NCBI RefSeq assembly: GCF_004010195.1
Contig: NC_057714.1
Location: forward strand, 13,154,176-13,218,175
Direction: 5' to 3'
Length of the DNA stretch: 64,000 bases
Origin: Chiloscyllium plagiosum
Taxonomy: Eukaryota
Shown: positions 17,054 through 58,825 of the stretch, piece after piece
Position numbering within the stretch: the stretch's first letter is position 1
How the letters are laid out: every line of letters starts with the position of its first letter
Made by a program: the position numbers and the translations under genes
Notes under the pieces: model-generated
Databases searched by the model: none
The model's input: the letters and a program-made list of their open reading frames with translations, nothing else
Told to the model about the DNA's origin: nothing

Positions 17054-20000
17054 TAGAGTCATACAGCATGGAAACAGAGCCTTCGGTCCAACTGATCCAT
17101 GCTGAACGTAATCCCAAACTAAACTAGTCCCACCAGCTTGCTCCAGGCCCATATCCCTCCTAACCTTTCCTATTCATGGATCTATCTAAATGTTTTTTAA
17201 ACATTATAATTGTACCCACATCCACCACTTTCTTAGGAAGTTCATTCCACATGCGAACCACCATTTGTGTAAAACATTTGCTTCTCATGTCGTTTATAAT
17301 CTCTCTCCTCTCACCTTAAAAATGTGCCCCCAGTCTTGAAATCCCTGTTCTTGGGAAAAGGCAACTACCACTAACTCTATCCATACCTCTCTTTATTTTA
17401 AAAACTAGTATCAGATCCCCTCTCAACCTTTGATGTTCCAGTGAAAATTGTCCCAGTCTATCTTGCCTTTCTTTACAACTCAATCCTTCCATACCAGGCA
17501 ACATCCTGGTAAATCTCTTCTGAGCTCTCTCTCGCTTGATAATATCCTTCCTATAACTGGGCAACCAGAACAGGACACAATATTCCAGAAGAGGCCTCAT
17601 CAATGTCCTGTACAATCTCAACATGACTTCCTAACTGCTATACTCAAAGGACTAAGCAATGAAGGCAAACGTGTCAAACACCATTTTAACCACACTGTTA
17701 TATGTGATGCAAACTTCAAAGATTTATGTACCTGTACTTCTAAGTCCCTCTGTTCTACAACACTACCCAAAGCCCCACAGTTAATTACATAAGCCCTACA
17801 CTTGTTCGTATTACCAAAATGCAATATCTTGCATTTATCCAGGTTGAACTCCATCTGCCATTTTTCAGCCTATTGACCCATTTGCTCAAGATCCCTTTGT
17901 AATCTTAGAAAATCTTCTTCACTATCTACAATGCCATTAATTTTGGTGTCACCTGCAAACTTACTAACCATGCCTTCTATTTTCTCATCCAAATCGTTTA
18001 TGTAAATGACAAACAAAAGAAGACCCAGAACTGATCCCGACAGAACAACGTTGGTCATAGGCCTCCAGTCAGAAAAGCAACCCTCCACCATTATTCTCTG
18101 TCTCCTGCCATTAAGTCAATTATATATCCAATTGAATCCCATGTGACTGAACTTTACTAATAGTCCAACATGTGGAACCTTGTCAAAAGCTTTCCTAAAC
18201 CCAAATAAACAATATTTACTGCTCTGCCATCATCAATCCTTTTGGTAACTACTCAAAAAACTCAATCGAGTTTGTGAGACATGATTTTCCTCACACAAAA
18301 TCATGCTATCTTTAATCAATTTTTGCCTCTTTAAATGTTAATAAATCCCATCTTTTAAAATCACGTCCAATAATTTACCCACAACCAAAGTCAGACTCAC
18401 GGATCTATAGTTCCCCGGGTTCTCCTTATAATTTTTTTAAACAAAGGTACAACAGTGACCACCCTCCAGTCATTAGGCACCTTACCCGTAGATAAAGATA
18501 ATGCAAATATTTCTGCAAGAGGTCTCCTAATTTCCTCTCTTACTTACCCCAACGTTTTGGGATACATTAGATCAGGTCCCAGAAATTTATTCACCTTTAT
18601 ACTCTCTAATATCTCCCAAATTTCCACTGCTGGAACGTGAACTGATTTAAAACATCAGAGTTTATTTCTTTGCATTCCCTGGACTCCACTTCTTTCCACA
18701 CTGTAAATACTGATATGAAATATTCATTTAATATCTTTCCCATCTCCTGGGGTTCAACACAAAGATGACCTCCTTAATCTTTAAGAGGTCCTATCCTCTC
18801 TAAAGTTACCCTCTTGCTCTTAATGTATTTATAGAATCTCTTTGGATCATCCTTAACCTTATCTGCCAATGCTATCTCATATCCCCTCTATGCCTTCCTG
18901 ATTTCTCTCTGAAAAATGCCCCAACACTCTTTATATTGATTAAGAGATTCAATTGAACCAAGTTGTCTATATCTAGAATACTTGACTAGAACTTCAATAT
19001 CTTTATTCATCCATTGTTCCTTAATCTCACCAGCCTTACCCTTCACTCTAACAGGAACAACATTTCTCTGAACTCTCATCATCACATTATTGAATGCCTC
19101 CCACTTGTCTGACATCCCTGACTGTGAACATTCTACTCCAATCAACTTTTGAAAGGTCTTGTCCCATACCATTAGCATTTGCCTTACTCTCGTTATAAAC
19201 TTTAACATTTATGGAAGGCTTATCCTTTTCCATAACCATAGAATTATGATTGCTATGGACCCAAAGTGTTCCCCCACTTTTACTTCAGTCACCTTCCCTG
19301 TCTTATTGCTGAAAAGAAGGTCTAATTTTGCTCTTTCGCTAGTAGGAGCATCCAAATATTGCTGAGAAGCATTTTCTTGAGCACATTCTTCACCATCCAA
19401 ACCTTTAAAACTCTGGTAGCCCCAGTCACTGTTTGGAAAATTAAATCCCCCATTATTATAACCATAATATGCTTACATATATGTGAGATCTCCCTGCATA
19501 TTTGTTTCTCAATTTCCCTCTTACTTTTGGGGGGCCTATAGTACAATCCCATCAAAGTGAACTTTCCTTTCTTATTTATAATTTCCACCCAGATATTTTT
19601 ATAGGCGATTTTTCAGAAATATCTTCTGTAGTTACAGCAGTAATGTATTCTTTAATCAAAAATGCCACCACCCTCTCCTTTCTTGCTTCCTTTTCTGTCC
19701 TTCCTATAAAATTTAAAACCCAGAACATTGAGCTGCCTGTGTTATCCATCTCTTCGCCTAGTTTCTGTAATAGCTATGATGTCCCAATCCCATGTTCTTA
19801 AACCTGCCCTGAGTTCATCAGCTTTCCCTGTAAGACTTCTTGCATTGAAATAAAGGCAATTTAGATCTTCAGTTACTTATACTCTAATTCTCTCTTGTTT
19901 TTCTTTGATAATTGCTCTCCTCACATTCAGAACCTTGCTCATCAATCCTTCTGATTACACTGCTACTTCAAATTCCTCCTCTCACCCTCTCTGTCGGTAA

Positions 20001-21390
20001 AAAGTCTTCCTTAATGAAACGAGCAAATCTCCCTGCTAATATATTGGTCCCTTGCCAGTTTAGATTAGACCCATCCTTTTTGAACAGGTCTTTTCTGTCC
20101 TAAAAGACATTCCAATTTCCAAAAACCTGAATCCCTGAACAATATACCAGCTCTTCAGCCACTGATTAATCTACTTTTAACTTTTGGTTCCTTCCCATGC
20201 TTGAGTTTGGCATTGGAAATTGTAGGAAAAGATCTGCCACCTTGCCTACCCACAGCATGGCCACACAGAAAACAGAAAGTCAAACCTGTCCAAACCATAC
20301 AAGGAACAGCCAGAATGCCTCAGCATCGATGAAACAGGCTGACCAGGGAAACCAGACCTGACCACAGTCACTCGCAGACCAGGGAATACACTTGCCAAGA
20401 CAACCTGATAATAAGCGTTCTGGACCCGATAAACACCACTGTCCCAAAGCACCTAATGCAGTCTTGTATCCCAGTGATAACTAAGACACACAAAGGACAG
20501 GTCAGATGGAGAGACACCAGAATACCCCGCTCACAGGAGAGCAACAATGGAAACACCTTACTGCCAAGAAAAGAGACATTCTCACCGACCCTCGAAGAGA
20601 ACTGCTGTCTCCCAATCCCATTAAGAATTGATTGATGCTGCCAGATGCTTCATTGTATCTACATTCCAGATACAATGATAACTGATAACTGCTTTGCGAT
20701 TATCACCATCGTAACTTGATTACTTGATGATCAAGACCATTGTATTTTCACTATTTTTAATTAGCATCATTGTACTGTATGCCTAGAAAAGGTGGCTTGA
20801 TTCTCAGCTCAGGGAAGAGAACCCTTGATCTACCTGTACAGACTGTCAGTTCTGTGTCAGCTTAGTCAATTTCTATTCCAGCCATATGGCTTGTAATAAA
20901 CAGCTTGTCAATTTCACACGATCTGGCTCCTGTAGTCTCTGTTCAATTGGGCTCACTTCTCTGACGGAAGTAAGTCAGAAATTATTAGTTTTAAGGTTCC
21001 ATTTTTTAACCTTCCATCTAACCTCTTAAATTCACTCTGTACTGTTTTAATCTTTTCCCTAAAAATGTCTTTCCTTCCAATGCGTACAATAATTACTGGC
21101 TTCTCAATCTCATCTTTAACAATATGCTTGAAACATTTAGAGATGTCCTTAATCCTAGCATCTGGAAAGCAATAAACTATCCTAAATTTATGCTCACTGC
21201 CACAGAATCTCCTGTCTATGCCCTTGATGGGAGAGTGCCCAATAACAATAATTATATTAAATTGCTTCTTTAAGCAAATCAATTAACCATAACTCTTTCT
21301 GATGAGACCTGCGTTTTCTTTCAGCTCTTTATTACAAAATCACAGTTCAAAGTAAATACGAAAACACATCTCAATTCACTTACAGAGACT
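17054..21390 (-). mobile_element. Near full-length degenerate CR1/HER1 LINE (ORF1 esterase, endonuclease, RT) interrupted by a solo LTR
   Basis: ORF fragments in collinear order: VIGHSPIKGIDRRFCG (20953-21282), GLYYRPP (19322-19588), GSVLGLLLFVIYINDLD..SKFAGDTK (17870-18091), LYRTLMRPLLEYC (17316-17624). Confidence 0.9.
20221..20966 (+). mobile_element. Solo LTR of a retrovirus-like element
   Basis: 746 bp starting TGTAGG and ending ..CTGACG. Flanking duplication gaaat/gaagt (20216-20220, 20967-20971). TATA-like tagaaaa at 20784-20790 and AATAAA at 20895-20900. It cleanly splits CR1 ORF1. Confidence 0.75.
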
Positions 21391-21673
21391 TACTCTGTCT
21401 TCGTCGTTGTAGCCATTCGATTTCAATGATAGAATATTTCATCACTTCAATGATTTTCTGGTCAAGGTCAGCATGTTCAACAATATGTTTCAGCAATATT
21501 TTCAGCTTATCACTCACTTTTCTAAATAAATGTGCACAAGATAACAAGTAATGTTCTTTTCATACAATCCACTGGGAACGCTGTACATTATCAGGAAAAG
21601 ACCTTGAGGATCAGAATCTTGTCTGGTGTTAAAGAAAATCCTCAAACACATTTTCTCACGTCTGAATATGTAC

Positions 21674-21764
21674 GTCTATATTCCTTTTTACAGGCAATGT
21701 ACTTCAATTTATCTTGTATTCTTGAAATTTAGACACTGTCTCTGCCTCACATACAGAAATTATG
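21674..21764 (-). pseudogene. DUF4211-like pseudo-exon (best-conserved block)
   Basis: ctctcatttcAG|HNFCM*GRDSV*ISRIQDKLKYIACKKEYR|GT. GR, RI and KLK fall at the same spacing as in recalled CCDC82 [26 protein letters not shown]. Confidence 0.65.
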
Positions 21765-21922
21765 CTGAAATGAGAGGTACACAACTAAAAGACAGTGATG
21801 GGTGTTTAGAGGGTAAAAGCCTAATTAGTTTATGCCTCAACTCTCATTTCATCCACTGCCTTGAATGTCAACATTAAAAATCACACAACACCAGGTTACA
21901 ATCCAACAGGTTTATTTGGAAG

Positions 21923-21957
21923 CACTAGCTTTCGGACCGCTGCTCCTTCATCAGGTG
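21923..21957 (-). ncRNA. Minimal type I hammerhead ribozyme motif
   Basis: CAC-CTGATGA-A-GGAGC-agc-GGTCC-GAAA-GC-TA-GTG: helix I CAC/GTG, helix II with one mismatch, palindromic AGCT helix III, UA cleavage site. Confidence 0.7.
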
Positions 21958-22296
21958 ACTATGGAGCAGGGTCATAAGACACAGAATTTATTGCAAAAGA
22001 TCACAGTGTCATGCAACTGAAATGATATATTGTACAAACCTAGATTGCTGTTAAGTCTTTCATCTTGCAGATTTCAATTCATTAATATGTAAATCCCAGA
22101 ACTTCTTTTAAATCACATTCTTGAGGTAATGTAAGGTTTTATAAAAAAACAGGTGACATCTCAGCTCAGACAATGCATTAAAGGTGTGAGGTTAGAGTCT
22201 ATCTGTATCCCAATCTTGAGTCAGACTGGCTCTATTTCCAAAGTAGGAATTTATAAAATTTATATAATTCTATGTCTTATGATCCTGCTATACAGC

Positions 22297-22331
22297 CACC
22301 TGATGAAGGAGCAGCGCTCTGAAAGCTAGTA
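22297..22331 (+). ncRNA. Minimal type I hammerhead ribozyme motif
   Basis: CAC-CTGATGA-A-GGAGC-agc-GCTCT-GAAA-GC-TA-GTA: helix II fully paired (one G-U), helix I with one mismatch. Confidence 0.68.
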
Positions 22332-22433
22332 CTTCCAAAAAAAATCTGTTGGACTCTAATCTGGTGTTGAGTGATTTTTAACTTTGTCCACCCCATTCTA
22401 ACACCAGTACCTCCACATCATTTAACTTCAACA

Positions 22434-22634
22434 TATGTCGTTTTGTTATAACACCAACGAATTTGCTGTAACGCGATTAACGAATTGGGGGATGCTGTTT
22501 CTCCAGCGTAAACTTTTAAAACATGTTTGGGCTGTAATGTCAACACAACGCCAACACTTTAAGCACTAAAGCAGTTTTTCTATAATGCGAGATTGCACAA
22601 GAACACAACCATCACGCTATTGAAGAACTGACTG
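22434..22634. mobile_element. MITE, same family as 11324-11541, opposite orientation
   Basis: Ends gaactgactg|ta. Internal sequence is reverse-complementary to the 11324 copy. Confidence 0.75.
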
Positions 22635-24859
22635 TATTGGGCAAAAGAATTGTGTGCCCCATTTTCTTGTGGGCATTTTGATGGCTTGCTGATCCATGAA
22701 GCAGCATCACTGAATACAGCGTGCAACTTTTTAATGGTTTTATTCCCAGTTGAGGCCATTAATAGATAATGGTTTACTTTTTCCTTCCCTGTGAGATGAC
22801 AGCTTATTCATTCACATCTGGCAGGCACTTAGAGCTCCTTTCTCTTGTTTGAGAGAATGTTTACAAGATTACCTGTTTCATTCTAAAAAAAGACATATCT
22901 TCATACATCACAACAGTAGATGCTAAAAAAAAAATCACTGATTGATTGCACTCATTTCAGATATTTCTCTGCAGTTGGAATGCAGAGAAAGTTTCTGATT
23001 TGGGGTCAAGAGAGCATTAATAAATCCTATCACCTTAAAATTGTTGCAAGTGATATTTGCAGATTGTTATTTAATAAAGTATCAAATAAAATGGATTAAA
23101 CCCTCACAGAAAAGACAAAGAAATGTGATGAAGTACAGTATTGCTAATATTACTGTCATTAACATTGCCATCAGATATTTCTATTTTTAAGCATAATATA
23201 TTCCCTTTCTGCCATTTTTAATATTTTCATTATCGTGAGAATCCATAAACCAAAACAAGTTATCTTTAACTTAGGAAATAACTGAACAAGATTTCATCTG
23301 CTTTTAACTTATGCAAGTATAATAATCTACATAAACATAAATTAACAAGAAAATTGACAGCTGCTATGAAACTGTAAATTACATATGGAAGCGAAGAGAG
23401 AGATTTCAAAGATATTCTATGCACTCTATTCTCCCTGCCATCAATCTCAGCTCACAGTTCTTATCAGTTTGGATATTTTTTGTGCAGAATCCAAAGATTA
23501 GACTTCAAAGACTAGTGAATTCTCCATAGGCAGCTGTCTCTGTGAAAGCAGAGTTTTGTCCGTACAGTTTTCCAGATGATCACACTCTGCTCTCTGGTGG
23601 ATTCTTAATTCTCAGCTCCCATCACTAGAACTGTCTTTGTCTTCTCAGGACATGACTGACTATGGTCATTCTATGATCTGGAAAGGAATGAAACAGCAGC
23701 AGCAGTTCTCAACATAATCTCGGACGGCTCAGAATCCAGTTCTTTGACTTAGCCTCTTGACTGACTCCTCTAATTGTAATTTTTCACTTTCTTCTTTCTC
23801 TCTCCACCGAATGCCCCCATACTTTAACTTCCTTCCTGTTGATTTTGCTTCCAGGTCATGGGGTTTGCCTAGGTTGTATGTCAAATGAAGTAGTATTTAT
23901 CATCCAAAAATTAAAATCGATCCATTTACAAATGAGAGAAACATTTAAAAAGTCCTTTTCAATCGTTAAACAAAATCACAGTCCCCAAATGATTTAAAGT
24001 TATTAAAAATCTTCCTGTTGCTACTGCTTTTGAATCAAAGGCCACTACATTTTTCATACGATGTATAGTTTTGAAATATTTTTCAGAGGATACAAAATGA
24101 CATATTTATGTTCTCAACCAGCTAAATTTGATTGTTACATGCTTGAAACAACAATGGATTTTGGTATTTACTTCTAATATACATATACAATTTAGTTCAG
24201 ACATCCTTGCAGTTCCATCTCCTGAAATCATACTTATTCATTCTACTGGGTGACATAATAACAGTAAGCTACTGACAGTCAGCAATTCTGCTTTATAACG
24301 GTTCTCTTAAAAAAGTATTCTTCTCAGTTAAAAATGTCAGCTTCTTGTGTGTATTGATTATATCAAGCTTGTAATTGATCAGCAGATGCCTTGTGAGAGA
24401 TAGGAATTAATTGAATTGTGTTAATAGTGAACAGATTTGTTCATATCTTGTCAGTATGCAGAGACCTGCTCAGCTTCCAAATGTGGATGACCTTCAGTAA
24501 ACCTAATAATTGAACTAAGGCAGGAACTGTTAATGTCATTTCTTATAAATGGAAGATTGCAATTTTTTTTCAAATTTCTCAAAGATGTACACTGTAACAT
24601 CTATTGTGTTTAAATTTCTATTTCCTCTATTCGACATCATCAACCAATTAGGGTTGTTCAAGTTACATTCAATTAATTCTCTTTTTTTTAACATGGAGCT
24701 ACCTAGAAAGGTGCTCCATTATATAAAGTCCTTCAGCTTGAATGTAGTAGTTGTTCAGATAATAATTACATCACAATTGTAACTTTGTTCCTTAGCTTTG
24801 GTTACAAAATCCATTAGAAATGACATTCAGTGTTTGATTAACTTAAATGAACAAGACAC

Positions 24860-25165
24860 ATTACATGAACTTCACCAAGGCACATTACACAGCACCTCCC
24901 AAACTCATGACCTCTATCAGCCAGAAGGACAGGGACAGTAGATATATGGGGACACTTCTACCCGCAAAGTTCCCTCAAAGCAACTCACCCCCATCCCGAC
25001 TTTCAAATGTATCGCCATTCCTTCAATGACACTGGATCAAACCCCTGGGACTCTAATGGTATTTTGGCTGTACCTGCAGCAAATGAACACCATCTCAAGA
25101 GCAAGTAGGTTGAAACAATAAATGCTAGCATAGCCAGAAACACCCATTTTCAATGAATTAATGAA
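24860..25165 (+). mobile_element. L2/CR1-group LINE 3' end
   Basis: Same 3' tail family as 8700-8945, ending aataaatgctagc...atgaattaatgaa. Confidence 0.7.
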
Positions 25166-26253
25166 AGAAAACAATCCTTCCCAGAATTAGTCGTCATTCA
25201 GCTTATAACCCAGGTAATGTAGAGATTCAAGTATTCAGTCTATTATAATTTAAAAGCAAGTAGTGATCAATTTCTGCAATATACACTAACGTTTATCAGT
25301 TTCAAAAAAGCTGATTGGCTAGTTTAACAAAAATCTCAGTTCTTAAATGGTATGCAGCAAAATAAATTACATGATGAGCTACATTAATATTTGAATCTGG
25401 ATAACTTGTTTGTCGATGATACTAACATCATTCTCAAGTTGATTAGAGGAATTCAGTATTAAAACTAGCCTAATTAAATGTCAATATCTCAATTTTTAAC
25501 CTTATTAATACTGAATTTAGATAGCAGCCACAGCATAAATTTAGACGTAGGTTGGCATTAACGTTTGATAAGGTAACTTTCTTGAAGTTATTTAGAAAGA
25601 AAGAAGAGTCCTCTCAAACTGGCAGTTGCGAGCCAGTACATTTTTTTGGAAACATATTTTATTAACCCTATTTCAGTTTATGTTTACTTCAAAGAAAATA
25701 TAATTGTGTGTAAAAGATGTTTCCATCTCTTCAGCTTCCCAAGCTCCCTGATTGATCATCAGAATCACTCGAAACATGAACTTGAATCCTTCTGCAGCTG
25801 AAAGAATTCAGATTAATGTACTATTGAAAGCTACAGATGTGGCATGAGATGGCTATAGCTGTAGTAATCACAGTTTAATGGGATTAGTGCTCTTAAACTT
25901 CTCAACAACATGAATAAATGTGATTGGAACTTAGGAACGAGCACTTAAAGTAATTTAAAATTTGGATCATTTAGCATTTACGGTTCACGAAAAGGATTAC
26001 CCAACTCAGTAAAGTCCTCAAGATAGTGGGGGAAAATTGGTGTGTAGTGATCTTTGGGTGTGATTTGCGAGGTGGGACATGCTTATGCTGCTTATGAATA
26101 GCGTATAGTTTGATCCCATATATACATATTATATTTTATTCATTCATTCATGGGATGTGGGCATTGATGGCTAGGCCAGCATTTATTGCCCATCTGTAAT
26201 TATTCAGAGGGCAGTTAAGAGTCAATTACATTGCTATGGGTCTGGAGTAACAT

Positions 26254-41370: not shown

Positions 41371-41567
41371 TCACGGATTCTGTATTTCACAATTTAATCT
41401 TTCACAAAAAGTCTCAAGTTCCTTTATGCAGTTGCTTGCCTCAGGAGGGATTGCTTCAGTTACTGATGCCTTCCACCTATGTAGGGCCTCCATGGCTCCT
41501 CTAGGGTTACTAGGAGCAAGGTCATAAACCGCATAAACTGCTGCTAACTGTACAGGCCATGGAACAC
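41371..41567 (-). CDS. ICE1: ICE1 terminal coding exon including TGA stop
   Basis: Acceptor ttttcAG; 197 nt, phase 1 in. GVPWPVQLAAVYAVYDLAPSNPRGAMEALHRWK...QNP* resembles human DIPWGIQLAAVYALCDLSPSNP. Confidence 0.95.
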
Positions 41568-41899
41568 CTGAAAACATAGTAATCAGAAACCATGATCACA
41601 AACTGTTCAATATAAAACATAGAAAACAGTCTCTGTTCAAAATATCCGATACAGAACAGATTTTCTTCCTTCCAGAATTAGCAACGGCAACTTTGAACAA
41701 GATCATTTTCCCGCATATCATGCTGTAAAACAAAGTCTTGTTAAAGATTAATTAGATGAAGGCACAGAGCATCCAGATACTCCATCAGTTCTACCAAAGG
41801 TTGGCTTCAGCACTGTTCAGTCCTACATTCTTTATTAAATCAAATTTAATTTTAGGTGGTGAAAAGATCTTCCTTTACTTCCCAGCTTTCGATGAACTA

Positions 41900-42690
41900 G
41901 TTTTGATAATTTAAGAACAAAAAAGGAAACTGAACGTAAGAGCAACAGCAGCAAGGTATCTGACCTAGCCAATATGCTTTGCAAGTCCAAAAGATCATGG
42001 CTTATCTAATTGTGGCCGAGACTCTTGCCTGGCTCCATAACTCTTGATTTCTTTGTAGATTAAAAATCCATACAACACAACCTAAATCTATCATCTAGCC
42101 TCAGCTGTTCTCTGATGTACACAATTCCAGATTAACAGCCCTGTGAGAAAATACATTTCTCCTCACGATCTTAAAAGTGGGATATCCTTTTTTTGAAGCA
42201 ATGCCATGTGGTTCTAGGTTCCCCCAAAAGAGAGAGAATAAACTTTCAGCATCTATCCTATTGAACCTCCTGAGAATATTGTATGTTTCAATAAGATCTC
42301 CTCAATCTGCTAATTTCCAATCAACATAACAAATCACTCCTCAAAAAACAAACCCTTCATCTCACGAATCAACCTAGTGATCCTGCTGTGAACTCCTTCC
42401 AACTGAAGGACTTCTTTCCTAAAATAAGGAGAGCGAAACTGAGTGCAATACACTGGTGTGCTCTTACCTTGAGTAGTTACAGCAGCAGGAATTCCCCACT
42501 TTAATACTTCAGTCCTCTTGCAATAAAGGCCAAGATTCCAAGTGCTTTCCTAATTACCTGCTTTACCTACTTGATACCTTTTCTTTTAATTTGTGTGTGA
42601 GGGCACACGAATCTCTCCATCTATTTAAATAATATTCTGCTTGTCTATTTTTTCCATCAAATTGGACAAACTCTTAATTTTTCCACATTT
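41900..42690 (-). mobile_element. Old CR1 3' fragment in ICE1 last intron
   Basis: Degenerate similarity to the other minus-strand CR1 3' ends in the window. Confidence 0.65.
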
Positions 42691-43044
42691 TATTACAGGT
42701 TGGACTAAATTAGGATGACAGATTTCATTCCCTCGAGGACACCAGTGATTTGATTTGACTTGACTTATTGACTTATGACACGTTTTGTTTTGTAAGCAGT
42801 ACAGGTAGTTCATAGCAAACAAGGACATACAGATCATAGGGTGAACTGAACCAGACTGATTGGTGAAAAAGGCCTATGCTAGTTCTCATTGTCAACATTA
42901 GTGAGAATAGCTTTACAATCCACATTACTGCCTAATCTTGTTAATCAATATGCTTCCTTTTGCTGACTGTATACCCTCAAAACTTCTTGTCCTCCTTATA
43001 TTTGTTTCATTCGCAAATTTGGCTCCAATACAGTTGCTCTTTCA

Positions 43045-43258
43045 TCCACCAGTCTAAAGATATGCAGGTTAGGTGGATTGGTAATGCTAAATTGCCCATA
43101 GTGTCCAGTGACGTGGAGACTAGGTGGATTAGCCATGGGAAACGCAGAGTTACAAGGATGGGGCAGTGGGGCAGGTCTGGGTGGGATGTACTTCAAACGG
43201 TCGATGTGGATTCGATGAGCCGAGTGGCTGGATTCCACACTGTAGGAACTCTATGATT
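43045..43258 (+). mobile_element. 5'-truncated HE1-type SINE
   Basis: aaagatatgcaggttaggtggattggtaatgctaaattgccc V-domain and tail ctctatga. Confidence 0.8.
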
Positions 43259-44879
43259 ACTTTCTTTCATAAAATGCTTTCTGTTTGACTGTATTATCAT
43301 TTTCTAAATGGTGCAATGAACAGGTGAAACAAATCGAATAAGAACATAACGATGAAATATGAATAACAACAATGTGAACAATTCTATTCATTAGAATGAC
43401 TAAAAACAAAACATGCAAAATGAAAAACATAACACAACCTGACTGGGTTTCTTACACATGAAACCATATTTATATATTTGCTGCCCTAAGTTGTACGTGA
43501 AGAAATTTTAAATTTAAGTCCTGAATTTGGCAAGTTAGTGATGAAGTTTTGTTAGCTTGACACTTAAATGTCAGTTATATTGTATCTGATGTGTTCTCCA
43601 TGATAACGCCCCTACAAGTTCACTTTATAATCAGTCAGCGAAGTTCTCAAATATAAATTTTATTGACCCGTTACCTGATAAATTCTTGTGAATTGTCCCG
43701 ATGAGTACACAATGAAAAGCTTCAATTAAGTGTCTTTATTCAGCAACACAAGTTTTGTACCACAATCGCCTTGTTAGATATTAATCTTTACTGTTAGACT
43801 GTTGTGTCTCTCTCTCCAGATCTGGCAATGGGTTTGCCACTGATGTGTAAACAAGAATTATCTGGCAGCTACCCAAATTATGCCCCTTTGCAACTATTCA
43901 TCAAAATTTGGACTAATTTCCCTAGTTATTACATCTTCAGCCATTTTTTTGATGAATGCAGCTGCAGCATGAGATCACCTGAAAAGTCTAATTTTCCCTT
44001 CAGCCAAAGATTTTAGTTTTTCTTTTTTTGCAGTCATTCTAGATTATGTTTTCTGATTTTCAGGATTATAATTGCCTCTCAAAAGATGATTTCGTGACCT
44101 TTTATCTTCTTTTTTCATGTTATATGGGCATCACTGGAAATTTTTGCCAATCTCCAAAAGCCACTGAATTAAGTGGTTTGCGAGGCCATTTCAGAATCAA
44201 ACACATTGCTGTGGATTTTGAGTCACATGTAGGCTCGACCAAATAAGGATGACAGATTTCCTTCCCTAGAGGACACCAGTGATTTGATTTGATTTATTGT
44301 AGTCACAGGTACATAATTCCAGTGAAAAGCTTTGTTTTGTGAGCAGTACAGCAGACCATAGCAAACAAGGACATACAGATCATAAGAGTGAATTTAACCA
44401 GACTGATTGCTGAAAAAACCCTTATGCCACTTCTCAGTGTCAACATTAGTGAGAATAGCTTTATAATCCACATTTATGAGTTGAATTTCAATTTCAGCAG
44501 GTGCGTTATCATGACCCACCATCTCTGCACACCTTCCCTGTTTCATCGCTAGGACAAAATTTAACCTGTTCAATCCATCATCGTCTTTCTCGCCCTACTC
44601 TAGTCTTTTATTCCATCATTATGAAGGCTAATTCACTTGCCAGCTTCTATTACTGGTCAATGCTCAAGTTCAAGATTTTAACTTCACTTCTTTTTCTTTA
44701 CTGACAGCTCAGGTTGACTAAGCATCCCAGAATGTTCTGTTTTTAATCAAATTGATATCAGACTGAATGCTTTTCACTACAAAGGATAAAATCTAGTCTG
44801 ATCTGGAGTAGATAATGAATACATTCTTTCAAAGATAATACTCTCTCATCCTAAATTGATAATAACAGCAGAAACTGAA

Positions 44880-47460
44880 ATTCAACTCATTGCCTTCTTA
44901 CAGGACAGGAAACAATCCTTGAGAGCTGAGATGGGAAGGAATTTCTTCAGCCAGCGGGTGGTTAATCTGTGAAACTTAGTGCCACAGAGAGGGCTCTGGA
45001 GGCCAAGACAATGAATGTATTTAAGACAGAGACAGATAGGTTCTTGATTGGTAAGGGAATCAAGGGTTACGGTTAGAAGGCAGGAGAGTGGGGTTAACAA
45101 ACGTATCCGCCATAATCGTAGAGTCAATGGGCTGAGTGGTCCAATTCTGCTCCCATATCTCGTACTCTTAAGGACAGTATCAATTCAAGAAAAAATTGAT
45201 TTCCTGGAGGTCTCCATTGAAGAGGCTAATCTTGGCCAAATTGCACGTATTTAGGATCCACATCCCAGAGTGCAGAATCTATTGGGCCTCCAGTTTAAGG
45301 TTTGCAGGTAAGGAGGCCTGCACCATTTCTCAGACGATCTTCTATTCGAATTTACATGTGCTAATGACTTGTTTGCAATTTTACATGCATGGGGATGTTC
45401 ATATGAACAAATTAGGAGTACAAATCAGCCACTTCAATAAAGACACGGCTAATTGGATTACTCCACAGTCATGCACCTTCCCTACCTTCGACGTCACCCA
45501 CCACCAACCCTGATAGCTCTATGTTCATGTTAAAATATTCAAAGACTGCTTCCAATGCCTTTTGACAAAGAGACCTCCAAAAACTCAGGTTTTTGAGGTG
45601 AAAGCAAATTCTCAACTGTCTGAAACCCCTACTTTTTAAACAGTGACCACAAATTCCATATTCTCCAACAAAAGGAAAAATATTTTTCTACATCCACATT
45701 GTCAACACCCTAAAGACCTTATGTGTTTCAATCAAGTCACTTCTTACTCTTCTAATCTCCAGTAGATACAAGCTCACCCTGTTCAACAAGACAACTCACC
45801 CATACCAGGAATGGTCTAGCAAATCTTCTCTGAACTGCTTCCAATGCATTCTTCCTTAAATAAAGTTGACCAATATTGCACATAGTCTGTTCTCACTCAG
45901 CATCCGTAGCAAAGTGGTGGATGCACTACAGCATCTGTGGAGGGAGAAACAGAGTTAACATAGAATCCAAAATGACTCTCCTTCAGAACCTAGTGCCAAA
46001 GAAGAGTTATGTCGGACTCAAAGTTAACTCAACTTCTCTCTCTGCAAATGCTGCCAGACCCATTGAGCTTGCTGATTTTATTTCAGTTCGCAGTGCTTTG
46101 CTTTTATTCTTACTCCTGATGTGGACGCACAAATGCCCTTGTATAGCTGAAGCATTACCTCCTTACCCTTGTATTTAATTTCCCTTGCAATGAATGGGAA
46201 CATTCCATTAGCTTACAAATCAACCGTTCGTAATTCATATGAACATACAAATCAGGATCAGGAGTAACCCATTCAGCCCCTTAAGCCTGTTCTGCCATTC
46301 AATAAGATCACAACTGATGTGATTGGAACATCAAATCCATATTCCGACTGACACTCATAACCTTTCAATCTCTTGCTTAACATTAATCTGTCTATTCCTT
46401 TCTTCAAGATGTTTAACAACACTCCTCCCACTACCATTTCAGCAAGAGAGTGTTTGAAAAACACTCAATCTGCAGAAGAAAGATTTTGCCTAATCTTTTG
46501 AACAGTGACCTCAAGGTTCTAGACCCTTAGGTGGAAATATGTTCTCCATATCTATCCTGTCCAAGACCCTTCAGGATTTTATTTATTTCAATCAAGTTGC
46601 CATTTACTCCTCTATCTTCCAGAGAATACAAGTCTAGTCTGTCGGACTGTTCTTCATAAAACAGCCCTACCTCATTCAAGGTATTAGACTAGTAAATGTT
46701 TTCTGAATTGTCTTCCATACAGCTTTCCTTAAATAAGGTGATCAATACTGTGCACAATACTCCAGATGCAGTCTCACCAGTGCACTTTATAACTGAAGGA
46801 TAACCTTCCTACCTTTTTATTCTATTCTCCTTGCAATAAATGATAATCTCACTTTAACAAAATTAACAATAAACTACTTGCTAGATCTGCAAACAAATCT
46901 TTTATGATTCATGTACTACTACACTAACATCCCTCTGGAGCACAGAGTTCTGCAATCTCTCAACATTTAGATATTTCCTTACTTTTTCACTCTTGTGCCA
47001 TAACTGCCAATTTTGCATTTTCTCACATTATCCTCCATTTGCCTGATGTTTGCTTACTCACTTAAGCTATCAATACTCCTTTGTAGCCTTCTTATTTGCT
47101 CTTCTCAACCAACCTTTGTACCATGAGCAAACTTAGTAACCATATCTATGGCCCCTTTATCCAGGCCTTTATATAGATTGTAATGCATTGTGTGCCACAG
47201 ACATTAGTGTTTTCCACACCTTGCCACCAGAAAATGACCTGTTTATGCCTAGGCTTTTTCCTGTTAGCTATCTAATCTTACATCTATGCCAATGCTTTTT
47301 CTCCATTTAATAAGCAATCACCTTTGACATGGCACTTTATCAAAGCCTTCTGGAAATCTAAGTACAGTACATGCCACATTTTCCCTTTATCCACAGCACA
47401 TGTTTTTGTAAGGAATTTCAATATATTGGTTAACATGGTTTCCTTTTGAAATAAGCCACA
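44880..47460. mobile_element. Cluster of CR1 fragments (plus 44880-45160; minus 45395-47460) with nested fold-back PLE (about 45915-46095)
   Basis: CR1 3' UTR and RT-like sequence. Inverted arms gcatctgtggagggagaaacagagttaac / gttaactcaacttctctctctgcaaatgc. Confidence 0.7.
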
Positions 47461-47849
47461 TGGTCAGAGTGAAGGAGACTTTGCCAAATTGAGAGAGAGA
47501 TAGAGCGAGTAAGTAGCACTTTGGGTCAAAGTTAAGTCAAAGATAGGTTTACCGTTAAAAAAGGTTTCCAGGTTGAGATGACAGCAGGAGATGAATTAAG
47601 TCATGGATTGAGAGGCTTGCACAACCAAAAATGGTGTGATGTCACTACTGCAGGGAAAGCAGCCGATTAGAAATATAGTGACCAAACATGCTTGCCAATC
47701 TTCATAGTGAACATTGGGTACTTAGTTTGTGTTTAAACATGTCAATGTTTTTCACTCTCTTTTTGAGAAATAGTTCATTCAGTTTCATAGCTAGTTCTTT
47801 GAGAGTCCAAGAGTAACAAATAGTTTTTAAAATTCAGGCTGGCTAATTA

Positions 47850-49440
47850 GAAAGAAGTGGAGTGTACAACCTATGGTATGTGTGAAGTCATGGACATACT
47901 ATATGTCCCAGACAAAACATGTGCAGAGATGTCACTGTTATGAACCTATGAGGCATGGACTATGTGGATAGCACGTATAAGGAGGTCACTACACTGCAGA
48001 GTAGAAGCGTACTAGTGGAGAGGGAAATGGATGATTACTACGCAGTCTAGAAAAACCAGTCAAGTAGTGCAAGAGTTCCCAAGTCTATCTTGTTTGCTAT
48101 TTGTTATTCTACTTTGAAAACCGTTTAGAACCACGGTGTCTCAAGGAAGTGCAAAGAGAGCCAAGACTCTGGCACCATGGGAGAGTCAGCTGCAAAGGGG
48201 AGGAGAAAGGAAAACAGAAGAGCAACAGTTATACAAGATTCCATAGTCGGGAATCAAGCATGTGATTCCGAGATGGTGCATTGCTCCTCTGGTGCCAGGA
48301 TCACAGAAATCCTTCTGGGGGCTTTGGGTTGGGGGTGGGTTGGGTATTAGGCAGAAGTTCTGGTCCCTACTGGCACAAACAACATGGTAGGAACAGGAAT
48401 AAAGGTCCTGCAATCAGATCTCAGGGAGTTAGGAAGGAGATTAAAAACAGTTCCTCAAGTGTCTCAGGATTACACCTAGTACCACCTGTCAGAAGTGTGA
48501 AGCAATACTCTGCAGCTCCAACAACACTTAAGAAGCTTGAGACAATCCATGGCAAAGCAGCCCACTTGATTGGCAACACATCCACAAACATTCACTCTAC
48601 CACTGACATTCAGAGGCCTCAGTGTGTCCTACCTTCAATATGCAGTGCAGAGGCTCGCCAAAGGTCCTGAGACAGCAACTTCCACTGTGACCAGTACCAT
48701 TGAGAAGGACAAGGCCACCAGATATGTAGGAAGATCACTATCTGCAAGATTCCTTCCATGCCATTCACCATCCTGACTTGGAAATAAGATTGCTGCTCCT
48801 TCATTGTTGCTTGGTCAAAATTTTTCAATTCCCTTCCTGATGGCGTTATGAGTTTACTTACAGCATATGGGACTGCAGCAAACCAAGAAAACACAGCTTG
48901 CACACCCTCTCATGGGAAACTAGCAACAGACAATATACGCTGTTCCAGCCAGTGACACCCATGTCCCATTAGTGAATATGCTTGCCCCTTTGATGAGTCT
49001 AGAAATGGTGGACAAACTTAAAAATGAGGGTCATGGCACTTTGTTCCAACATGAGGAAGAAGTATTTTATCAGACTTTGGAATTCTCTACCACACAGGGC
49101 TGTGGAAACTCAGTCTTCCGAGTATGTCTAAGGTAGTGAGTGATAGATTTCTGATTACCTGTAGTGCAGACAGCTATGGGGGTGGGGTGGGTAAAAGACA
49201 TTGATGTGTTAGATTGGCCATGATTATACTGAATGGTGGGGCAGGCTCGATGGGCTGAATGGTTCAGTCTTATGTTTTCCTTTCATCAAAACCATATTAA
49301 TTTGGCCTGATTACTTTAAACATTTTTAAGTACGCAGCTAAACAACTTTAATAACAGTTTCTCTCATCTTTCCCCTATGACATGTGACCCTAACTGGCCT
49401 GTTATCTTCTACCCTCCGTCACCCTCCCTTTTATAAGATG
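47850..49440. mobile_element. CR1 ORF1 remnant (47850-48490), L2-like 3' end (48495-48975), CR1 tail (48985-49275) and CR1 RT fragment
   Basis: Similarity to better-preserved copies elsewhere in the window. Confidence 0.65.
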
Positions 49441-49924
49441 TCTAGGAAAGTCCTCCCACCAAGCCCTAACTGAAACTCTTGTGTAGCCAAACAGATTGGC
49501 TGACCCCAAAGTTACTAATGAATATGATTGGCTGGCAGCCTCAGAGATGGTACCTCCACTCATGCGAATAGTAAATGTCTTGCGTTCAATCACTGAACAG
49601 TTACTACATAGGTGGGAAGGACTGTGCGATAGTCCTGATCAATGGCAATGTGTTCCCATCAATCTCTATCAGCTTTGGCTTTTCCAGTGGTGGGATAGAA
49701 AAATTGGAAAAATTATGCCCTAAAATCCTTCTTGCTAAATAAAATGGTGAAGGTTTGTCTGCCTTTGGCATCAACCCAGAAAGAATATTGTGCAACAATT
49801 CAGTAAATAAACTCAAATGATTAAAGTGGATTTAAATCTATGACTGATTGATGTAAACTTCACTTTTAAGTCGGCAAGTGTGTCTATTAACAATTTAGTA
49901 AACAACATTTCTATGCTAAATACT

Positions 49925-50300
49925 AAATGCGGTGGAATAGTGTTAGCAATCCAGAACCCAAGCCTAATGTTCTAGGGGCATGAATATGAATTCCATACAT
50001 GTCAGCTGGTGGAATTTGAATTCAATAAAAATGTGGAAATGTATAAAAGCTAGTCTAATGGTGACCATGTAACCACCATCGACTGTCATAAGTACCCAAC
50101 CTTGTTCACTAATATTCTTTAGGGAAATAGATTGGTCAGCCTAACCCAGTCTGGTCTAGATTAGATTAGATTAGATTAGATTAGATTACATTACATTACA
50201 GTGTGGAAACATGTGACACCAGATGTGCAGCAATGCAGCCAATACTTAATTGCTCTCTGGTCAAGTAAGGATGGGCAATAAATGACGACAAAGCCAAACA
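49925..50300 (+). mobile_element. tRNA-derived SINE with L2-like tail, containing an inserted (TTAGA)n HE1/HER1 tail at about 50156-50210
   Basis: ggtggaatttgaattcaataaaa...ggtgaccatg body and aaggatgggcaataaatg tail. About 7 TTAGA units followed by cagtgtggaaaca. Confidence 0.65.
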
Positions 50301-50399
50301 CATGACAGAGAAAGGTAAAAAGTCTCAAAGTCAAGTGTTTGTTAAGATGCAAAATTTAAGCAACAAGTTCCTTTAACCGAAATATATGTGGACACTTAC

Positions 50400-50498
50400 C
50401 TTCTTGAAAAGCCTGCTGGAGAAACTGGTTCATCACTGCAGCCATGTTTCTTACAGCAACTAAAGATTCTTTCTTCAGTCCTTGCTGCCCCAGGTGTC
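50400..50498 (-). CDS. ICE1: ICE1 penultimate coding exon (missed by ORF track)
   Basis: Acceptor ctaaaAG, donor G|GTAAGT; 99 nt, phase 1 to 1. GHLGQQGLKKESLVAVRNMAAVMNQFLQQAFQE resembles human GRLGQLGLKEGFPSAVKNISSVIGMFIQHAHDE. Confidence 0.92.
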
Positions 50499-51029
50499 CT
50501 TTTAGTTAAATAAAACCCAGTAAAATATAAATATTTCTGACCACAATTCTATACTGTCTTACAGAACACTTATAATATTGAATACTTTAATGGGCAAAAC
50601 TGATACAGAATAGTCACTTATCTTAACCCCATTCTCCTGCCAAGAACCTCTTAAATATATTGGTCCTATTTCTGACTTACAAAAATGCAAACATTGCAAT
50701 TCCCCTCAGCAACGAGGATGCGCATCTGTTTCAGAGCAGAACCAGCAGGCACACAGGAGTGGCAGGCCCACTCCAATAGTGATGAACCCAATGAAACAGA
50801 GCAAAGTGTCAACACAGGACCATCATTCACTATAATAACCTAGCAGTGGCATTGGCCTGCCAGCTCTAAATATACACTATATATTTTGTTGCAAAACACA
50901 CACTGTATTGCTGCAACACACTATAACAGAAGAACAATATAAAAGCACCAAAATAAAAGAAAATAATCCACTCTTAGTTATTCATACTGAAATGGACAGA
51001 AATAAATGTAAACAATAGCAGTCAACTTT

Positions 51030-51235
51030 GTTAAAAATCACACAACACCAGGTTATAGTCCAACAGGTTTAATTGGAAGCACACTAGCTTTCGGAGCGAC
51101 GTTTAACCACCTGATGAAGGAGCGTTGGTCCGAAAGCTAGTGTGCTTCCAATTAAACCTGTTGGACTATAACCTGGTGTTGCGTGATTTTTAACTTTGTA
51201 CACCCCAGTCCAACACCGGCATCTCCGAATCATGG
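51030..51235. mobile_element. Young fold-back PLE-derived element in ICE1 intron
   Basis: Near-perfect inverted arms of about 65 bp (51030-51096 and about 51126-51194) plus unpaired 3' tail. Confidence 0.9.
51108..51142 (+). ncRNA. Minimal type I hammerhead ribozyme motif
   Basis: CAC-CTGATGA-A-GGAGC-gtt-GGTCC-GAAA-GC-TA-GTG: intact core, helix I CAC/GTG, AGCT palindrome. Confidence 0.72.
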
Positions 51236-51379
51236 CAGTTAACATTGTGTTTCTTTACTCACTGGAACCATCAATAAACCGGTGAGGGGATTTTTTAGAT
51301 ACCTAAAATGCATTTTAAATTCACTACAAATGCAGTTCAAATAGTAATAGTGAATACAAATGTTCATTGCTACAAAGTG

Positions 51380-51990
51380 CAAGAAAATTCTGCGGATGCT
51401 GGAAACGTGGACAGAAAAGCAAATGGTGGAAGTACTCAGGACAGACAGCATCCTTGGAGAAAGTGTAAATACCAGGTTATGATCTTTATCAGTAAAGAAC
51501 AGTACAGCTCATCAGCAAAAAAAAATTAGAGATTTAATAGTTCATGTGCAAATGGAAAGACAAGGCAGGAAAGGAGTGAGAGAAGGAAATAACTGAAAGG
51601 AAGGCTTTTGATAGGAGTTGCAATGAGGAGAGGCTAAGTAACAAGAAAAGGTGGTAGTGCACAGAAAGAAATGAGGTTGTAATGCAGATATAAACAAAAA
51701 GATGGGTCTGGAGGAAATTGTGAATGCAATACCAGATTAATTGCCATCATTTGCTTGGCACAGCAATAATGATGCTGAACTCAATGCTGAGGTTGGAAGG
51801 TTATGGCTTTACCATCACTCTTGTCCACACCCCATGACAAAGGCCTCCCCTTTGTTCCTTCCTTTCACGATACCTCCCATACTCCACCTGCCTCTAATCT
51901 GTTTTATCACTAAGTTCATCCAGTTCTGATGAAATGTCATCGCTCTCAACCTGATCTGTTTACAGTTTCCAGTATTTCCATTGTTGATTT
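51380..51990. mobile_element. Old Penelope-like fragments in inverted arrangement
   Basis: ctgcggatgctggaaac pLTR-like start, purine-rich then pyrimidine-rich spacers, gttCTGATGAaatgtca near 51923-51940. Confidence 0.55.
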
Positions 51991-52194
51991 AAGAGCAACA
52001 GAACCCAGCTAACAATTGCAGTCTAGTTAGGATATCCTAAATAAAAACACTCAAATATATTCCAGATTGCGTGAAAGAAAATGGAAACATTAGGCTGAAT
52101 AAAAATTAAGTTCAAGTGTGCTCTTCAACGAGATAAATATTCAAAGCTCCTTGCTTATTAATTATTCTCAACAGCGGATGAAATCAATAAAACG

Positions 52195-55100
52195 TATATA
52201 AGACCATAGACACAGGAGCAGAATTAGGCCATTTGGCCCATCAAGTCTGCTCCTCCATTCAACCATGCCTGATATTCCCCTTCTCCTGCCTTCTCCCTTG
52301 AACCCCTTACTAATCAAGAACCTATCTCTAAAGCAAAATCTGAAAGAACTTCAGATGCTGCAAATCAGAAACCAAAACAGATATTGCTGGAAAAATTCAG
52401 CTGGTCTGGCAGTTTACAGTTAACATTTCGGGTCGACTGATCTTTCCTCATGACCTGTTCTGAGGAAGAGACACTCAACCAGAAACATTAACACTGATTT
52501 CTCTCCGCAAATGCTGCTAGACCTGCTGAGCTTTTCCAAGAACTTATCTATCTCAGTCTTAAATACATTCATTGACTTGGCCGCCAACAGCATTGTGACA
52601 ATGAATTCAACAGATTAACCACCAACTGAATGAAGGAATTCCTCCTCTTCTCAGTTCCAAAGGATCATCCCTTCATTCTGAGGCTGCGCCCTCAGGTCCT
52701 AATCTCTCCTCCTAGTGAAGGCATCTTCTCCACATCCACTCAATCCAGGTCTGTCAGTAATCTTTAAGTTTCAATCGGATCACTTCTTGTCCTTCCAAAC
52801 TCCATCGGGAGGATATTGTGAAACTTGAAAGGGTTCAGAAAAGATTTACAAGGATGTTGCCAGAGGTGGAGGAATTGAGGTATGGGGAGAAGCTGAATAG
52901 GCTGGGGCTGTTTTCCCTGGAGTATCAGAGGCTGAGGGGTGACCTTATAGGAGGTTTATAAAGTCATGAGGGGCATGGATAGAATAAATAGGCAAGGCTT
53001 TTTTCCCTGGGGTGGGGGAATGCAGAACTAGAGGGCATAGGTTTATGGTGAGAGGGGAAAGATATAAAATGGACATAAGGGGCAACCTTTTTACACAGAG
53101 GGTGGTTTGGATTAGATTAGATTCCCTACAGTATGCAAACAGGCCCTACAGCCCAACATGTCCACACCGACCCTCTGAAGAGTAACCCACCCAGACCCAT
53201 TCCCCTACCTGATATTTATCCCTGACTAATGCACCTTACACTATGGGCAATTTAGCATGGCCAATTCCCCTGACCAGCACATCTTTGCATTGTGGGAGGA
53301 AACTGGAGCACCCAGAGGACACCCATGCAAACACAGGGAGAATGTGCAAACTCCACACAGTCACGCAAGGTGGGAATCGAACCCGGGGCCCTGGCGTTGT
53401 GAGGCAACAGGGCTAATCACTGTGCCACCGTACACATCGTGCGTGTATGGAATGAGCTGCCAAAGGAAGTGGTGGAGGTTGGTTCAATTATAGCATTTAA
53501 AAGGCACCTGGATGGGCATATTCATAGGAAGGTTTGAGAGAGATATGGGCCAAGTGCTGGAAAATGGGACTAGATCAGGTTAGGATATCTAGTCGGCATG
53601 GACGAGTTGGACCAAAGGGTCTGTTTCCGTGCTGTGTATGTCTATGACTAGATATACACACCCAGAGTCCTCGACTGTTCCTCATATGACAAGCCCTTCA
53701 TCTCTGGGAACATTCTTGCAAACCTCTTCTGGACTACCGCCAATGCCAGCACATCCTTCCTTAAGTATGGGACCCAAAACTGCTCACAATACTCCAAATA
53801 CAGTCTGACCAGTGCTGTATACAGCCTCAGCAGTACATCTCTGTCTTGCATTCTAGCCCTCTCGAAATGATTGGTAGCATTGCATTTTCCTTCCTAACTG
53901 CAACTGAACTGGTGTGTAAGAGAGTCATGAACTAGGATTCCCAAGATTTCAAAACCTTTCCCCATTTAGAAAATAGTTGACACCTCCGTTCATTTGTCAA
54001 AAGTGCATAACCTCACACTTTTCCACACTGTATTCCATCTGAGACTTCTTTGTCCACTCTCCTAGCTGGTCCAAATCCTTTTACAACCTGCTTACTTCCT
54101 CAACACTACCTGCCCATCAATCTATCTTTTGTGTTATCTGCAAACTTAGCAACAATGCCCTCAGTTCCTTCATCCACATCACCACATGCAACATGAATAC
54201 TTGTGGTCCCAACACAGACCACTTCAGAAGACTACTAGTCAATGGCCGCATTCCAGAAAAAAGATCCCTTTACCCCTTCTCTGTCTTCTACCAGTCAGCC
54301 AATTCTATAACCATGGCAGTACCTTGCCCTTAACACCATGGAGCTCTTGTCTTATCTAAGAACCTCCTGTGTGGCACCTTGTCAAAGGCCTTTTGAAAAT
54401 CCAAATAGATCATGTCCACAGGCTCTCCTTTGTCTAATTTGCTCGTTACCTCCTCAAACGAATTGTAAAAGATTTGACTCAGTCCTATTTTACCTTTCAC
54501 TTCCAAGTAGTCTGCAATCTCATCCTTAATATTGGACTGTAAAAATCTTACTAACTACTGAGGTCAGGCTAACCAGCCGATATTTTCTTGTCTTCTGACT
54601 TGATCTGTTCTTAAACAGGGGTGTTACATTAGCCATTTTCCAATTCTCTAGAATGTTCTCAGACTCCAATGATTCCCGAAAACAAAATCACCATTTTTGT
54701 CTCTACAATCGCCTCAACTATCTCCTTCAGAACTCTGGAGTTTCGTCCATCTGATCCAGATGATTTATCCACCTTCTAACCTTTCAGCTTCCCAAACACC
54801 TTCTCCTTAGTGATAGCCACTACACTTACTCTGCCCCTGACTCTTTTGAAGTTCTGATATGCTACGGAGCCTTCCACCATGAAAACTGTTGCAAAGTACC
54901 TATTCATTTCCTCTGCCATTTCTTGGCTCCCCAACCTCATCTCTCAGTGGTGCAGCCTTGCCTCTCTCTTACCTTTTACATACCTACAAAAACTCTTGAA
55001 ATCTTGGATTTTACTAGCCAGCTTACTCTCATATTTCATCTTCTATTTTCAGCCCTCAATTTTTTTTTTAAGTTATCCTCTGCTAGTTTTTAAAGGCTTC

Positions 55101-57722: not shown

Positions 57723-57829
57723 CAATAAGTCTCATGACGCCTGCCACTGTAGCATCTGGAACATTTGGCATATTTGCTTGTCCTCTTCTGCGTTTCATCC
57801 ATTTATCCATTACAGGCCACACCTCTGTC
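57723..57829 (-). CDS. ICE1: ICE1 coding exon
   Basis: Acceptor ttttctttTAG, donor G|GTAATT; 107 nt, phase 2 to 1. TEVWPVMDKWMKRRRGQANMPNVPDATVAGVMRLI resembles human ELWPVMDKWIKYRKGHANIAYTPDIIIASILRLI. Confidence 0.95.
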
Positions 57830-58529: not shown

Positions 58530-58825
58530 CGTTAACTCACCACGATCTTCATCGCCTCGAAGATCAAGGGCAGCAGATACATGGGAATATCACCCAAAAG
58601 TCCCCCTCTAATTCTCCAGCACCCTGACTTGGGAGTTATTTCATCATCTGTTGGTGTCGCTGGGTTAAAAATCCTGGAATTCCCTTCCTAACAATGTTGC
58701 GGCTGTACCTACATTCCAAGTATTGCTGTAGTTCAAGATTAACCACTACTACTTCCAGGGTAACTACAGGTGGGCAATAAATGTTGGCCCAGATTGTGAA
58801 TCTCCATCCCATGAACAGATAAAAA
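58530..58825 (+). mobile_element. L2/CR1-group LINE 3' end
   Basis: gctgggttaaaaatcctggaattcccttcctaaca...gggcaataaatgttggcc tail. Confidence 0.75.

What the first reader, a model, noticed from the sequence alone, without database searches (positions are those of the whole stretch)
21394..25797. Unannotated DUF4211/CCDC82-like unitary pseudogene
Seen on the minus strand, in order: RRIQVHVSSDSDDQ (about 25.75 kb). Then REKEESEKLQLEESVKRLSQR and DKTLLSQRQLPMENSL (23383-23868). Then GFINAL, which becomes INALDP after a 2-nt slip, followed by AEKYLK*VQSISDFF, VIL*TFSQ, SACQM* and LSING (22718-23033). Then FCM*GRDSV*ISRIQDKLKY (21674-21764) and a fully open 128-nt exon ending EIEWLQRRRQ (21394-21521). 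Recalled references: CCDC82 [57 protein letters not shown]; PRR12/QSER1 TALDP, ELYLPPMRKID, LHTFPQ. Inference: an intron-bearing (not processed) extra DUF4211 paralogue outside the usual CCDC82 locus, now disabled.
Basis: partly seen in the sequence, partly recalled or inferred. Interest (0 to 1): 0.8.

Follow-up and report, generated by a model that had tools for sequence, protein, structure and literature searches.

The report
Likely decayed DUF4211 gene behind ICE1
Behind the ICE1 gene of a shark lies single-copy DNA, full of stop codons and frameshifts, that is likely the long-dead remnant of a CCDC82-like (DUF4211) gene; the family match is too faint to prove, and it would matter only as a trace of a lost vertebrate gene.

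Summary
The peptide motifs are at the stated places and in the stated order, on the minus strand, 16 kb past the last ICE1 exon of a carpet shark (inferred). The DNA is single copy.

Spliced, frameshift-aware alignment to a QSER1/PRR12 profile is not significant in any setting tried, although simulation shows low power. No intact relative was found, and no CCDC82 sequence could be fetched to compare.

Three signs argue against pure chance:
- A CAG|GT junction falls on a QSER1/PRR12 intron position.

The exon model needs correcting. The last two 'exons' clash in phase and are likely one. The 'open' exon has a stop in both relatives, and divergence looks neutral.

Verdict: likely an old DUF4211 pseudogene (about 0.6). 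'Extra paralogue' and 'unitary' are untested. Interest is modest.

The parts
25734..25797 (-). Possible first coding relic (RRIQ...SDSDD, basic then serine/acidic); weakest part
   Evidence: Motif present; acceptor at 25791 in top 3.5% of AG sites, at 25797 in top 11%; no Pfam hit; no clear donor
23383..23868 (-). Possible long low-complexity exon relic, many stops and frame changes
22720..23033 (-). Middle block: likely N-terminal half of the DUF4211 domain, four frame switches, five stops
   Evidence: GFINAL, LDP, AEKYLK, TFSQ, CQM, LSING in order; 1-nt losses in B and C at 22925 and 22824 join three of the frames; gapless 40-residue match to QSER1/PRR12, 37 of 1,320,810 control positions as good; CAG|GTA at 22873 on the family's phase-0 intron
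21869..22636 (.). High-copy short repeats (SINE-like) filling most of the spacer
   Evidence: Depth 1e5-1e6 in four DNA runs; masked intervals 21869-22259, 22261-22428, 22469-22636
21394..21764 (-). Last block: likely one exon (not two) holding the C-terminal half of the domain
17060..21300 (-). LINE-like relic directly 3' of the last donor; any terminal exon is lost or lies beyond it
   Evidence: Reverse-transcriptase/endonuclease-like fragments in ORF list and sequence; family not tested
41440..61449 (-). 3' exons of ICE1, the upstream neighbour on the same strand
   Evidence: Pfam ICE1_C on 57700-57855, E 8.6e-11; further exons near 61.3, 59.0 and 41.6 kb by short recalled motifs

Best explanation
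This single-copy stretch with many stops and frameshifts is likely the neutrally decaying remnant of an old DUF4211-family gene, likely of the CCDC82 type, that was likely already broken before this shark split from two related species. Shown: the motifs, their order, single copy number, the disablements, about 3-4% divergence to relatives with no extra conservation of the exon-like parts, and later repeat insertions. Inferred: the ancestor coded for a nuclear protein with a low-complexity N-terminal part and a C-terminal DUF4211 domain, in about four exons (a long N-terminal exon, a middle exon spanning three QSER1/PRR12 exons, and a 370-nt exon). It lost function, and has since gained stops, 1-nt indels and SINE/LINE insertions. 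It makes no full-length protein today.
For: (1) Out-of-sample check: organisms B (2 runs) and C (1 run) each lack one base at 22925 and one at 22824. Chance is 0.0003-0.003 if indels fall evenly and 0.004-0.012 if the T-run is a hotspot; my hand estimate given two indels in the block is about 0.025. (2) A third shared loss at 21608 puts the last two motif blocks in one frame (about even odds by chance). (3) In that frame a 40-residue block aligns without gaps to QSER1/PRR12 (37 of 1,320,810 control positions as good). Its Q|V junction is CAG|GTA, exactly where QSER1 and PRR12 have a phase-0 intron (AG|GT at 0.4% of positions). The ordered six-motif chain beats every control locus in 1.72 Mb of strands, narrowly (62.6 against 61.6). 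(5) A strong phase-0 acceptor at 21764 sits where QSER1/PRR12 have a phase-0 intron before F. (6) Simulated relics of 22-30% identity with 0.15-0.3 neutral decay score 40 or less in 7-90% of runs, as this locus does, so the negative profile tests have little power.
Against: No Pfam DUF4211 hit on 0 of 7 pieces. The QSER1/PRR12 profile (21 sequences) finds nothing piecewise. In spliced alignment, control windows match or beat the locus in 6-62 of 90, 5-87 of 150 and 108-463 of 600, 57-194 of 330 and 27-115 of 300 cases. A fixed-spacing test finds at best 97 equal control loci in 1.44 Mb, about 9 per window. Stop density in the joined middle frame (5 of 92) equals background (6.1%). No protein relative of the open exon among 5.8 billion sequences (control found 15 of 20) or 1.84 billion representatives (one repeat artefact). 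The CCDC82 motifs are recalled and were chosen after seeing the DNA; without the best one, 41 control loci match the chain. Some look-alikes weaken in the relatives' states (CKKE, the SA of SACQM, the CT slip). Two different stretches of the last block compete for the same family motif. Most proposed splice sites are ordinary.
Confidence: 0.6

Rival explanations
1. The motifs are a chance chain in ordinary non-coding DNA, picked across six frames by a reader who knew three paralogues and could borrow from each.
For: All tool-derived family tests are at chance level; stop density is not reduced; no relatives found; five of six recalled motifs are individually common; rival alignments exist within the last block.
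Against: It needs several coincidences at once: both 1-nt losses in relatives on predicted switches, one motif above 1.44 million controls, and AG|GT plus a strong acceptor at family intron positions.
Confidence: 0.3
2. It is an old retrocopy, fully or partly processed, of a DUF4211 gene, later split by insertions, and was never a functional gene at this site.
For: The middle block runs across two intron positions shared by QSER1 and PRR12 with no intron, keeping an AG|GT junction. The last block is likely one exon. About 725 of 955 spacer bases are repeats.
Against: Unique AT-rich spacers of 350 nt and 1.9 kb separate the 5' blocks. A strong acceptor lies at a family intron position and a strong donor ends the last block. 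No DNA or protein likeness to the genome's QSER1 or PRR12.
Confidence: 0.1
3. Sub-reading of the best explanation: the relic is the shark's only CCDC82, moved next to ICE1 and then lost, rather than an additional fourth paralogue.
For: No CCDC82 trace in 400 kb upstream of the MAML2-like exon. Four whole-genome motif patterns and the DUF4196 family gave no CCDC82 exon among the matches inspected.
Against: These searches are weak: recalled mammalian motifs, 9% N in the region, 18 of 29 matches inspected, and a family search with no control ringing. Spacing in the middle block equals QSER1/PRR12. That CCDC82 lies beside MAML2 is recalled.
Confidence: 0.2

Closest known systems
CCDC82 (Pfam DUF4196 PF13846 + DUF4211 PF13926)
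   Same: Atlas lists a chordate CCD82 cluster with both families.
   Different: No CCDC82 sequence was available to align; no DUF4196 or DUF4211 hit; lies beside ICE1, not MAML2 (the usual place is recalled); broken.
QSER1 and PRR12 (DUF4211 at the C-terminus; intact in this genome on C16 and C39)
   Same: Gapless spacing over the 40-residue block, one junction and one acceptor at their intron positions.
   Different: Similarity is at chance level overall; two shared introns absent; the phase-0 intron after the KE motif is not matched; no trace of their 1,270-codon exon.
Unitary pseudogenes (disabled single-copy genes with no functional duplicate)
   Same: Single copy, many disablements, neutral-looking divergence.
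   Different: An intact orthologue in an outgroup, which defines the class, has not been shown.

Membership tests
DUF4211 (PF13926) | Pfam HMM score at or above 27 bits | tested here: not met
   0 of 7 single-frame pieces hit at E up to 10; whole-genome family search did not report the locus. The joined reading was not scanned with the Pfam model.
DUF4211 (PF13926) | Significant collinear match to family members | tested here: inconclusive
   QSER1/PRR12 profile not significant but low power; one gapless block at 37 of 1,320,810.
CCDC82 subfamily | Closer to CCDC82 than to QSER1/PRR12 in alignment or tree | not testable with these tools
   No CCDC82 protein was returned; only recalled motifs scored.
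CCDC82 subfamily | N-terminal DUF4196 domain | tested here: not met
   No hit on the 5' pieces; family search of the genome had 0 candidates and no control rang.
QSER1/PRR12 subfamily | Shared intron positions within the domain (four in both genes, one inferred from exon ends) | tested here: not met
   Two absent in the middle block, one roughly matched at 21764, one not matched.
Pseudogene | Frame-breaking lesions and no purifying selection | tested here: met
   Stops and slips; exon-rich contigs differ 2.6-3.5% (B) and 5.0-5.6% (C), intron-rich ones 3.1-3.6% and 2.6-3.9%.
Unitary pseudogene | Intact orthologue at the same locus in an outgroup | not testable with these tools
   No other vertebrate genome is searchable; protein searches found none.
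Unitary pseudogene | No functional copy in the same genome | tested here: inconclusive
   Single copy at DNA level; no CCDC82 found by weak searches.
Non-processed (intron-bearing) pseudogene | Introns retained at family positions | tested here: inconclusive
   One strong acceptor and one strong donor; other sites ordinary; two family introns missing; spacer mostly repeats.

The most novel reading that the evidence does not exclude
Early jawed vertebrates had a fourth DUF4211 gene beside ICE1, with QSER1/PRR12-like spacing, CCDC82-like motifs and its own exon structure; it died in carpet sharks and may survive intact in other cartilaginous fishes. Or this relic is the lineage's only CCDC82, so these sharks live without a gene whose loss causes neurodevelopmental disease in people.
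Probability: 0.3. Interest if true: 0.5.

Novelty: new member of a known kind. Interest (0 to 1): 0.3.

Why it matters
If real, it records a vertebrate DUF4211 gene not described in the papers searched. It would bear on how CCDC82 and the chromatin regulators QSER1 and PRR12 are related. Should sharks lack intact CCDC82, they would be a natural knockout of a recessive neurodevelopmental disease gene (PMC13570277, passages seen). It also shows that slowly changing shark DNA can keep gene relics below the reach of standard profile searches. It reveals no new mechanism, and the relic is likely inert.

Tried and rejected
Pfam scan of 7 pieces: nothing. Protein searches with the open exon: nothing; one hit that was a 65-residue repeat artefact. 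Atlas on the open exon: top score 0.76, uninformative. QSER1 tblastn on the window: nothing at the locus. PDB search with a QSER1 fragment: 0. Rfam 15000-42000: 0.

Hunt for CCDC82:
- 400 kb upstream of the MAML2-like exon: nothing; one weak tblastn hit lay in what looks like a LINE fragment.
- Four genome patterns: 18 of 29 and 12 of 12 matches inspected, all judged chance.
- Two metagenome patterns: 0 and 64 matches, none with a profile hit.
- QSER1-region search for shorter proteins: 19 hits; the named ones are QSER1, PRR12 or DUF4211-domain proteins, none CCDC82.

A codon-bias model failed its ICE1 controls and was dropped. An internal duplication in the last block was not significant (50 of 500 and 64 of 1000 shuffles). 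The CKKE likeness to QSER1 was rejected because B and C share other residues there. No RNA holder was listed and no RNA reads were laid, so expression and splicing remain open. Three look-ups in earlier findings returned nothing. No fold prediction or tree was run.
Full report
Setting. The window lies on contig C5 of a 3.56-Gb genome. A QSER1 exon of this genome is identical to QSER1 of three carpet sharks, so the organism is inferred to be a carpet shark. The upstream neighbour on the same strand is ICE1: Pfam ICE1_C matches 57700-57855 at E 8.6e-11, and further exons lie near 61.3, 59.0 and 41.6 kb by short recalled motifs. The finding starts about 16 kb past the last of these. A LINE-like relic begins about 100 nt after the 21394 donor.

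Observation. The motif-bearing blocks are single copy. A DNA search with 22690-23900 found only itself and two short matches to its 5' 70 nt, and depth in four DNA runs is flat except over repeats. Repeats mask 21869-22636 almost fully, so the spacer between middle and last block is mostly insertion. Using recalled consensus weights, the acceptors at 21764 and 25791 and the donor at 21394 are in the top 3-4%. The sites at 23868, 23383, 23033, 22718, 21674 and 21521 are ordinary (28-63%).

Family tests with tool-derived sequences. Pfam gave no DUF4211 hit on 0 of 7 pieces read with X at stops, while a QSER1 fragment hit at 4.7e-16. The family search of the genome scored 4 candidates and matched one QSER1 exon. 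The open exon found no relative among 5.8 billion proteins (8 candidates) or 1.84 billion representatives (1 hit, a repeat artefact). A profile was built from 21 QSER1/PRR12 sequences: 4 of 15 and 17 of 19, two partial ones dropped. It found nothing piecewise. A spliced, frameshift-aware aligner recognised single true exons easily (60-88 against 14-31 for other loci) but placed the locus within the controls. It scored 16-19 against a window mean of 18.5. Controls matched or beat it in 6-62 of 90, 5-87 of 150 and 108-463 of 600, 57-194 of 330 and, with a neutral-decay codon model, 27-115 of 300. A fixed-spacing test over the N-terminal half found at best 97 equal loci in 1.44 Mb of control strands. 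Simulated genes at 22-30% identity with 0.15-0.3 neutral decay exceeded the control 95th percentile in only 5-88% of 40 runs each. So these negatives neither establish nor exclude the claim.

Contigs of two related organisms differ by 2.9% (B) and 4.0% (C). The tool listed 40 of 272 substitutions and 12 of 29 indels, so the picture is partial. Four listed indels are shared by B and C against this genome.
- Two (22925, 22824) each remove one base at two of the four frame switches inferred in the middle block, giving one frame from AEKYLK through TFSQ and CQM to LSING. Chance is 0.0003-0.012 depending on assumptions; by hand about 0.025 if two indels in the block are taken as given.
- The third (21608; seen in one of two B runs and in C) puts 21764-21394 in one frame, which removes the phase clash and suggests one 370-nt exon.
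In the joined middle frame, 40 residues align without gaps to QSER1/PRR12; 37 of 1,320,810 control positions score as well (block limits chosen after looking). Within it the CAG|GTA junction at 22873 coincides with the phase-0 intron of both genes. Against this, the joined frame has 5 stops in 92 codons, the background rate. B and C also add a stop near the end of the 'open' exon and remove the CKKE likeness. No indel is listed at the two switches near LDP, and B has extra frameshifts at 22722 and 23573. The gene, if it was one, was therefore likely broken before the three species split. Exon-rich contigs are no better conserved than intron-rich ones.

CCDC82. With a neutral-decay model, the 16-residue motif gives 17 bits at 21746-21699, above all 1,442,000 control positions. 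The other five are individually common. The ordered chain of six beats all control loci in 1.72 Mb (62.6 against 61.6), but without that motif 41 loci match it. The motifs were chosen after seeing the DNA, which inflates these figures. QSER1 and PRR12 are intact on C16 and C39. No CCDC82 was found in 400 kb upstream of the MAML2-like exon or by genome-wide patterns; these searches are too weak to show absence. The Atlas confirms that CCDC82 carries DUF4211 with DUF4196.

Reading. Most likely (0.6) this is an old, neutrally decaying DUF4211 gene with an exon layout unlike QSER1/PRR12. A chance chain keeps 0.3 and an old retrocopy 0.1. Within the best reading I cannot separate a fourth paralogue from a relocated CCDC82. 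It should be filed as a probable DUF4211-like pseudogene, not as a family member, because the Pfam criterion was tested and not met.

Literature. Searches for DUF4211 (2 papers), CCDC82 (107 papers, 30 listed), CCDC82 with QSER1 or shark (1 unrelated paper each), CCDC82 with paralog and phylogen (0), QSER1 with PRR12 and evolution (2), unitary pseudogene with shark (9 listed) and shark gene loss (3) showed no report of such a locus in the listings. I read passages of PMC12648955 (QSER1 and PRR12 share DUF4211, 43% identity), PMC11050278 (PRR12 domains and QSER1 paralogy) and PMC13570277 (CCDC82 truncation in recessive neurodevelopmental disorder). Supplements were not opened, and subscription journals and genome annotations are outside the library; either could name this locus.

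Noticed in passing
window 41440-61449 (-) and L156:4962-9902 (-): 3' exons of ICE1 in the window (Pfam ICE1_C) and a 1,647-codon open frame just beyond the window, likely its large exon.
   Followed up: partly
window 17060-21300 (-), also about 32400-32900 and 34400-35800: Decayed LINE-like retrotransposon fragments with reverse-transcriptase-like frames.
   Followed up: no
G000:C39:8991879-9031000 and C16:22475348-22552000: PRR12 and QSER1 of this genome share their DUF4211 intron positions and each has one exon of about 1,270 codons.
   Followed up: partly
G000:C6:48437000-48837000 (L006-L065): No CCDC82-like exon was seen in 400 kb upstream of the MAML2-like first exon, where CCDC82 lies in human (recalled); 9% of the stretch is N.
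   Followed up: partly
G000:C6 about 48475000-48481500 (L009-L010, -): Open frames that look like polymerase, integrase and envelope fragments of a retrovirus-like element; likeness judged by eye.
   Followed up: no
L003, L004, L005: Three mastermind-like first exons on C14, C32 and C6, taken as MAML1, MAML3 and MAML2 by recall.
   Followed up: partly
window 23662: All four DNA runs, including the same species, differ from the window here and lack a stop codon; likely a polymorphism or assembly error.
   Followed up: no
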